A DNA stretch of 64,000 nt. Source: Eledone cirrhosa. Lineage: Eukaryota. Within the stretch, counting starts at the first letter, position 1; each line of letters starts with the position of its first letter. The stretch is taken from NCBI GenBank assembly GCA_964016885.1, contig OZ024754.1, positions 36,704,001 to 36,768,000 on the forward strand, read 5' to 3'. Below are positions 33,303-38,702 of the stretch, piece by piece. The position numbers were made by a program, and so were the translations under genes. Under the pieces are notes generated by a model. That model was not told the origin of the DNA and did no database searches. It saw only the letters and a program-made list of their open reading frames with translations.

Positions 33303-33306
<4 letters not shown>
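32555..33306 (+). mobile_element. Family E retrozyme-like element: 522-bp unit plus partial repeat, inverted 5' segment
   Basis: TTTACGTCTTTCATAT at 32651 and 33173 (522-bp period). 32555-32650 is the reverse complement of ~33082-33177. The 3' end runs into (TA)n. Confidence 0.85.
33055..33132 (+). ncRNA. Type I hammerhead motif (family E)
   Basis: ACUCC-CUGAUGA-a-GAAAGG...CCUUUC-a-GAAA-CUAAUUAG-UU-GGAGU. Palindromic stem III AACUAAUUAGUU, GUU site. Confidence 0.85.
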
Positions 33307-33330
<24 letters not shown>

Positions 33331-33333
<3 letters not shown>

Positions 33334-33517
33334 GGAACAAGTGAGACCCCGACGGCTGAGCTCAAGCCGTTTCGACGGTTAATTCTGAATTAGCCGTCGA
33401 AACGGCTTGAGCTCAGCCGTCGGGGTCTCACTTGTTCCTATTACCCACTCTACTACCCTAAGTATTGAGTACTTTGGTGCGTTATGGTCCACCTGGTTCC
33501 TTACCACATTTCCTTCG

Positions 33518-33520
<3 letters not shown>
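33331..33520 (+). mobile_element. Family H fold-back element (55-bp arms, 1-nt loop) carrying the 3' half of a hammerhead
   Basis: Inverted repeat 33331-33441. GACGGTTAATTC-T-GAATTAGCCGTC-GAAA-CGGCT-TGAGCTC-AGCCG-TC-GGGG. 3' end TTCGTTA(TA)n. Confidence 0.85.
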
Positions 33521-33573
<53 letters not shown>

Positions 33574-38627: not shown

Positions 38628-38702
38628 TAACAGAGAGGGTGTGGTAAGATACCAGGTGGACCAGAACGCATCAGAGTACTCGATATGTGGGGTAGTAGAG
38701 TG
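38628..38702 (-). mobile_element. Family H 3' fragment
   Basis: Reverse complement of the family tail, abutting (TA)n. Confidence 0.65.

What the first reader, a model, noticed from the sequence alone, without database searches (positions are those of the whole stretch)
33331..33520. Family H: no local copy retains the ribozyme's 5' half, and inversions sit at stem II
Seen: GAAA-CGGCU-UGAGCUC-AGCCG-UC-GGGG is a good HHR 3' half (hairpin stem III, GUC site), preceded by a 12-bp hairpin in the stem II position. Where CUGANGA should be, the sequence is an inverted copy of the downstream part. Copies at 10977, 10350 and 8491 also invert in this region. Copies at 15724 and 38628 are 3' fragments. 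All six have the same 3' terminus (...CGTTA or ...TGTTA) against (TA)n. Inference: stem II self-primes the cDNA, giving recurrent palindromic insertions with no intact ribozyme.
Basis: partly seen in the sequence, partly recalled or inferred. Interest (0 to 1): 0.7.

Follow-up and report, generated by a model that had tools for sequence, protein, structure and literature searches.

The report
Half-ribozyme stubs of a Penelope retrotransposon
This 190-base mirror-image insert is one of many thousands of short stubs left by a Penelope-type jumping gene; both halves stop at the same spot inside its self-cutting-RNA motif, likely because the gene's RNA starts there and was probably copied twice, from both sides of a DNA cut.

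Summary
The palindrome, the five other copies and their shared (TA)n end are real; the proposed mechanism is not supported. The element is the terminal repeat of a Hydra-clade Penelope-like retrotransposon (3.6-kb unit, RT plus GIY-YIG). A 28-mer of the hammerhead 3' half has 23,767 exact matches genome-wide; 1,864 arms carry the 5' half, with U3-A8 or C3.A8 cores, not CUGANGA. The '12-bp stem II' is only the palindrome centre. Of 100 unbiased arms, 85 end within 24 nt upstream of GAAAC, none in the next 31 nt. This wall is T(C/T)AGT, an initiator-like motif inside loop L2, also seen in a sister family; an extra G there hints at a cap. Arms pair one long end with one short end (41 of 44), share haplotype, and either may reach further. 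Best reading: both ends of the cut prime on one RNA at two start sites 80 nt apart, both cDNAs run to a transcription start inside the ribozyme, and are joined head to head. No RNA data were available. Inverted ends and tails are published, and this scan noted twin-primed Penelope stubs in other genomes; the promoter-in-ribozyme reading was not found.

The parts
33306..33333 (.). Left (TA)n target; the last ATA is shared with the short arm's end
33331..33387 (-). Short-ended inverted arm: element positions about +5 to +61 (A of T[C/T]AGT = +1), ending at the upstream RT start site TTCCTAT
33374..33398 (+).
33387..33521 (+). Long-ended arm: element positions +7 to +141, ending at the downstream RT start site TTCGTTAT
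33391..33426 (+). Type I hammerhead 3' half: stem II 3' strand 33391-33398, GAAA 33399-33402, stem III with palindromic loop, cleavage site after 33421, stem I 3' strand 33422-33426
33442..33521 (+). 80-nt 'tail' between the two fixed ends, present on one arm only
33519..33570 (.). Right (TA)n target
10977..11159 (+). Second palindromic stub; short arm reaches TTTAGT plus an A-run filler; long arm starts near GAAA and is damaged there
10350..10582 (+). Stub of the sister family (about 82% identical); left end cut by an N gap; about 45 nt of filler at the junction
8491..8602 (-). Stub with a full short arm (8546-8602), a partly templated filler and only 41 nt of the long arm
15724..15792 (+). 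Tail-only fragment in (TA)n
38628..38702 (-). Tail-only fragment, sister-family type

Best explanation
The insert is a short head-to-head stub of a Hydra-clade Penelope-like retrotransposon, likely made when both ends of a cut in (TA)n primed reverse transcription on one element RNA at two fixed sites 80 nt apart and both copies ran to the RNA's 5' end, which is probably a capped transcription start inside loop L2 of the element's hammerhead. Shown: parent element, two fixed outer ends, one long plus one short end per insertion, the wall at T(C/T)AGT, and full hammerheads in longer copies. Inferred: that the wall is a Pol II start (initiator, with the ribozyme's CGAA at the +18 position of an MTE); that the downstream-primed cDNA displaces the upstream-primed one on the same RNA; that the two cDNA ends are trimmed and joined by microhomology or filler. 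An RNA starting at +1 lacks the 5' half, so it could not self-cleave; the two priming sites lie only 61 and 141 nt from its start, so the products would be analogues of retroviral strong-stop DNA. The roughly 20% of arms that pass the wall would come from the RNA's 3' repeat or from read-through transcripts.
For: Parent: L143, L149 and L150 hold the repeat in tandem with an ORF starting at about +230; unit 3,629 bp; Atlas look-alikes carry RVT_1/GIY-YIG/HTH_animal. Wall: 85 of 100 unbiased arms end within 24 nt upstream of GAAAC, 0 at 25-55 nt, 15 at 56 nt or more; genome-wide 25,611 arms reach +2, 9,205 reach -4, 5,014 reach -6; in read-derived contigs summed depth falls from 4.57M to 0.29M across +1, with listed loose ends at exactly +1, +61 and +141. 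Sister family: wall at TT|AGTT, again 18 nt before GAAAC, with an unrelated loop upstream. Motifs: Drosophila Inr TCA+1GTY; MTE CGANC +18..22 and CGG +27..29 (PMC5580651 passages); the element has CGAAA at +18 and the sister family CGG at +27. Untemplated base before +1: G 80, A 20 of 100 rows, against 49:51 before +6 (Fisher p 7e-6 raw, 0.02 after dropping point-mutant classes); an extra 5' G is read as the cap in L1 (PMC11702581 passage). Pairing: long+short in 41 of 44 short pairs, 3 unclear, no long+long or short+short; 17 of 20 long inverted pairs. Same rare haplotype on both arms in 23 of 26 rows, 8 insertions counted twice. In vitro an anole PLE nicks and extends both strands and starts at two internal sites that bound the tail (PMC11167929).
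Against: No transcript evidence could be examined. The cap-G excess is lost under the strictest filter (25:14 vs 19:15, p 0.63). The Inr and MTE consensus come from Drosophila and are short; the TATA-like TATTTAAA 29 nt upstream is not kept across subfamilies and the DPE match is poor. The wall is fuzzy from +2 to -4 because T-runs and ATTC microhomology blur it, and 35 of 100 arms end 3' of +2. The sister family leaks: 8 of 50 rows end 20-34 nt upstream of GAAAC (the rows include duplicates and a few main-family arms). A few insertions have arms of different subfamilies (L077, L069) and L143 has two long ends, so one RNA is not always the template. The runs laid are one study and may be the assembly's own source.
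Confidence: 0.68

Rival explanations
1. Twin priming as above, but the wall is not a transcription start: the RT stalls there, or the RNA is cut or spliced there (TTTCATTYAG reads like a 3' splice site).
For: A pyrimidine run plus YAG precedes +3 in the main family. The sister family has a strong hairpin just upstream of the wall (fold), and 8 of 50 rows end within it. The strict cap-G test is not significant.
Against: No constant upstream exon or leader is joined to the arms. The main family has no strong structure at the wall. Position and AGT motif are kept between two families whose loops differ otherwise. The ribozyme's own cut site is at +41, not +1.
Confidence: 0.17
2. Self-priming: one cDNA folds back near its end (first reader: at stem II; Arkhipova et al. 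2013: on an antisense template), is copied, and the endonuclease resolves the hairpin at the second fixed site.
For: Self-priming is the published reading of palindromic PLE junctions (PMC3846280 passage). Arms usually share haplotype; 34 of 87 junctions show overlap, often at AATT or GTAC.
Against: A fold-back from the long arm needs that arm to reach further 5'; the short arm reaches further in 17 of 87 junctions and both reach the wall in many others, with filler in 42 (approximate, includes sister-family rows). In L149 the short-ended arm holds about 4 kb absent from the long-ended arm. Some arm pairs differ at three linked subfamily sites (L077). Later deletion at palindrome centres could blur this.
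Confidence: 0.11
3. A non-autonomous palindromic mini-element (SINE- or MITE-like) that copies itself as a unit.
For: Very high copy number and uniform size; a 30-nt centre recurs in 15 of 74.
Against: 69 different junction strings among 74 palindromes. The five commonest tail haplotypes each have long, 5'-half-bearing copies. The 30-nt class is several different microhomology joins.
Confidence: 0.03

Closest known systems
Hydra-clade Penelope-like elements, e.g. Hydra-1_Obim (Craig et al. 2021, PMC8557442; section 11, passages and supplement hits read)
   Same: C-terminal GIY-YIG, RWR for RWK, DKT, CxCX5C linker, CxxC and CxH around the conserved E and N, (TA)n target, hammerhead at the end; the protein lines up by eye with the Hydra rows of the supplement.
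   Different: A different family: 3.6-kb unit with a long 3' UTR against 2.5 kb; hammerhead with 6-bp stem III, 37-nt loop L2 and A8 core; five of six motifs searched were absent from the supplement.
EN+ PLE insertions with inverted 5'-truncated pLTR and 30-40-bp tail (Adineta Pen2a, PMC3846280, part 1 of 5 and passages; PMC8557442)
   Same: Head-to-head inverted copy, tail on one side, partial tandems; TATA and Inr-like motifs noted in pLTRs.
   Different: Tail is 80 nt; most insertions are only the two stubs; both arms share a hard 5' limit; those papers favour self-priming or endonuclease resolution.
Poseidon_Ac in vitro (Frangieh et al. 2024, PMC11167929; parts 1-2 of 4 read)
   Same: Two internal RT start sites bounding the tail, both strands nicked and extended, AT-rich target, ribozyme not needed for insertion.
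   Different: There the start sites lie in the ORF and need no homology; here they lie in the 5' UTR and both end in TAT matching (TA)n. The parts read do not map a transcription start or explain inverted ends.
PLE hammerheads (Cervera and de la Pena 2014, PMC4209133; passages read)
   Same: Type I fold, palindromic loop 3, U3-A8 covariation, and pairs of hammerheads on opposite strands are all reported.
   Different: Long stem III, large loop L2 that appears to hold the start site, and an abundant C3.A8 subfamily.
L1 twin priming and retroviral strong-stop DNA (recalled; L1 cap G from PMC11702581 passage)
   Same: Second target strand primes internally; short cDNA running to the RNA 5' end.
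   Different: In L1 the two cDNAs copy non-overlapping parts; here they copy the same 60 nt and start at fixed sites.

Membership tests
Hydra-clade PLE | Single ORF with RT and C-terminal GIY-YIG | tested here: met
   YRDD RT and VIY..YIG endonuclease in L146, L150-L152; Atlas neighbours RVT_1/GIY-YIG; Pfam scans gave no significant hit
Hydra-clade PLE | RWK motif and DKG changed to DKT | tested here: met
   RLRWR (R for K) in the N-terminus; SDKTG
Hydra-clade PLE | CxCX5C linker; CxxC and CxH flanking E and N instead of CCHH | tested here: met
   CNC-x5-C; CNLCSEE..LLNK..CKH against the definition; read by eye
Hydra-clade PLE | Insertion into (TA)n | tested here: met
Hydra-clade PLE | Generally under 3 kb (a stated tendency, not a diagnostic) | tested here: not met
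   unit 3,629 bp in L143
Hydra-clade PLE | Placement in the clade by RT phylogeny | not tested
   reference proteins were seen only in a paper supplement; no tree built
Neptune-clade PLE | CX2-5CxxC linker and CCHH endonuclease motif | tested here: not met
   linker is CxCX5C; my early 'Neptune-like' label was dropped
Type I hammerhead ribozyme | Three helices around the core, open at stem I | tested here: met
   96.7% of 180 cells pair in 10 real copies, one compensatory pair in stem II; not above shuffles (76 of 500), so covariation support is weak; lowest-energy folds differ; Rfam no hit
Type I hammerhead ribozyme | Core CUGANGA with a 3-8 base pair | tested here: inconclusive
   U3-A8 in 63 and C3.A8 in 37 of 100 rows, G8 in none; U3-A8 is a reported covariant; the window's copies lack this half
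Type I hammerhead ribozyme | Self-cleavage after GUC | not testable with these tools
   needs an assay; no arm end piles up at the cut site among the arms examined, but the 28-mer sample spans that site and cannot show it
Non-LTR retrozyme | Tandem non-coding units, each with a complete hammerhead | tested here: not met
   stubs are inverted half-ribozymes; the tandem unit is the coding element; definition from the 2026 preprint, part 1 of 5
Pol II Inr/MTE/DPE core promoter | Inr at +1 with MTE at +18 and DPE at +28 | tested here: inconclusive
   TCAGTC, TTAGTC, TTAGTT at +1; CGAAA at +18 (4 of 5); CGG at +27 in the sister family only; DPE poor; no RNA

The most novel reading that the evidence does not exclude
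The element's Pol II core promoter is nested inside its hammerhead: the initiator sits in loop L2 and the catalytic CGAA doubles as the +18 promoter motif. Promoter-driven RNAs are therefore born with half a ribozyme, only read-through RNAs can self-cleave, and twin priming near the capped end yields strong-stop-like DNA that has filled the genome with tens of thousands of palindromes, a fossil map of both the transcription start and the two RT starts.
Probability: 0.45. Interest if true: 0.7.

Novelty: new variant of a known kind. Interest (0 to 1): 0.5.

Why it matters
How Penelope-like elements form inverted ends and tails, and what their hammerheads are for, is named as open in the papers read. 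This family gives base-level rules from thousands of events: one long plus one short end, shared haplotype, either arm longer, a common 5' limit. These favour two-ended priming on a sense RNA over self-priming and name exact sites for an in vitro test. If the limit is the transcription start, it explains why the ribozyme does not destroy the template, why a subfamily with a mismatched core can be abundant, and it would be a case of one sequence serving as promoter and catalytic core. The stubs also seed the genome with short perfect hairpins.

Tried and rejected
Rfam found no hammerhead in the window or in an intact copy; hits were simple-repeat and hairpin noise. Pfam scans of three ORF pieces gave nothing significant (one E=0.23 hit ignored) and the solved-structure search gave only E about 0.5. 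No RNA holder was listed, so expression and start site were not examined; this blank is no evidence. Lowest-energy folds do not give the hammerhead fold. The first 5'-half pattern (345 matches) missed subfamilies and was replaced. A TATA box at -29 was dropped as not conserved. A separate master with TTG before +1 was rejected: the long copy of that haplotype has TTC (L247). 'Neptune' was replaced by Hydra. Target-site duplications cannot be read in (TA)n. The 30 best-BLAST loci are biased toward the query's haplotype and were not used for the concordance claim. Nine paper searches listed no paper on this family or on a start site inside a PLE hammerhead; subscription papers, Repbase notes and preprint supplements were not visible and may bear on novelty.

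Full report
Observation. Window 33331-33441 is a 111-nt palindrome between (TA)n runs, followed by an 80-nt unpaired extension. The right arm holds a type I hammerhead 3' half. The '12-bp stem II' has a 1-nt loop and is the palindrome's centre.

Parent element. The window lies in a 3.0-Gb genome, G000, probably of an octopus-like animal (inference from repeat content and the likeness to Hydra-1_Obim). Of the 30 best loci, 5 are not inverted at the ribozyme, 24 carry an inverted arm and 1 joins (TA)n directly. Longer loci lead to an ORF with RT and C-terminal GIY-YIG. L143, L149 and L150 hold the repeat in tandem: the internal copy continues past the tail to an ATG at about +230, and the unit is 3,629 bp. 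The motifs RWR, DKT, CxCX5C, CxxC and CxH and the (TA)n target fit the Hydra clade of Craig et al. (section 11); the supplement's Hydra-1_Obim is a related but different family. No tree was built.

The ribozyme. Intact copies read stem I ACCCC, core YTGANAA, stem II G-CT-CGGCTA with TAGCCG-TC around a loop of about 37 nt, GAAA, a 6-bp stem III, GTC, GGGGT. The named structure pairs in 96.7% of cells with one compensatory pair, which is weak covariation. A 29-mer of the 5' half has 1,864 exact matches; in the first 100 rows 63 are U3-A8 and 37 C3.A8. G8 occurs in 12 arms, literal CTGANGA in 2. U3-A8 is a reported PLE covariant. Activity is untested.

Two fixed outer ends. Arms end at +61 (TTCCTAT) or +141 (TTCGTTAT), both sharing TAT with the target. 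Among the 100 unbiased arms, 44 short inverted pairs were found: 41 long+short, 3 unclear, none alike. Among 20 long opposite-strand pairs that I picked from listings, 17 are long+short, 1 long+long, 2 unclear. This matches the PLE tail, which Frangieh et al. showed to be the stretch between two internal RT starts, with both target strands extended.

A fixed inner limit. The 3'-half 28-mer has 23,767 exact matches. I fetched all of the first 100 listed: 85 end within 24 nt upstream of GAAAC, 0 at 25-55 nt, 15 further; the sample is conditional on holding that 28-mer. Whole counts fall from 25,611 (+2) to 9,205 (-4) to 5,014 (-6). Contigs of two public runs of one study show a 16-fold depth step and loose ends at exactly +1, +61 and +141; inverted joints occur in them too, so this is not an assembly artefact, though the runs may be the assembly's source. 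In the sister family (48 matches, 30 fetched) 19 of 50 rows end 17-19 nt before GAAAC, at TT|AGTT, 8 end at 20-34 nt, 1 is the reference and the rest end earlier.

Why there. The limit reads TCAGTC, TTAGTC or TTAGTT; the Drosophila initiator is TCA+1GTY and the MTE is CGANC at +18 and CGG at +27. The ribozyme's CGAA starts at +18 in both families, and the sister family has CGG at +27. D. virilis Penelope has an internal TATA-less promoter (passages) and Adineta pLTRs have Inr-like motifs. The untemplated purine before +1 is G in 80 of 100 rows, against 49 of 100 before +6; p is 7e-6 raw, 0.02 without point-mutant classes and 0.63 when partner-like contexts are also dropped. This suggests a cap but does not prove it.

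One RNA or two. Junctions are nearly all different (69 of 74), so each stub is made anew. For a haplotype with 1,541 arms, 23 of 26 rows with a neighbouring arm share it (8 insertions counted twice; one mismatch is a separate insertion), far above its share of about 6%. A few pairs differ at linked sites. Either arm may reach further: long 30, short 17, equal 40 of 87 (approximate). The simplest model is priming at +61 from one DNA end and at +141 from the other on one RNA, displacement of the first cDNA, and joining of the two ends. Fold-back from the long arm fits these asymmetries poorly.

Known and new. Inverted ends, tails, opposite-strand hammerhead pairs and U3-A8 are published. Unchecked notes of this scan reached a twin-priming reading for Penelope stubs in other genomes and for retrozyme arrays in this one; I read them after forming the reading. 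A start site inside the hammerhead was found neither in the paper searches nor in the scan's notes. Verdict: real, a new variant of a known kind; origin near certain, twin priming likely, promoter-in-ribozyme plausible and directly testable.

Noticed in passing
window 58200-58520: About 320-bp palindrome with two complete hammerhead-like motifs head to head (cores at 58301 minus and 58414 plus) of another family; the flanks are mirrored too.
   Followed up: no
window 10715 (+), 21221 (-), 32480 (-), 52585 (-) and 52751 (+): Further CTGANGA..GAAA motifs with short stem II, probably ends of other Penelope-like families; the last two face away from each other.
   Followed up: no
window 15050-15260: Another near-perfect palindrome of about 200 bp with short (TA) stretches in both arms.
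   Followed up: no
L039, L070, L186 and others: A subfamily with a C3.A8 mismatch in the ribozyme core is abundant (37 of 100 rows), so cleavage may be dispensable for spread.
   Followed up: partly
L044, L068, L121 junctions: Long untemplated A/T runs (15-20 nt) at the end of arms that reach TTTAGT, suggesting RT slippage or tailing at the template end.
   Followed up: no
L073 2060-2530: Three tandem solo short arms, each starting at +2 within (TA)n; local duplication or repeated insertion.
   Followed up: no
L066 3294-4649 (-); L067 2-1597 (-); L070 4009-6028 (+): ORFs of other retroelement families beside or inside the insertions: a second Hydra-like RT in L066 and other Penelope-type RTs in L067 and L070.
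   Followed up: no
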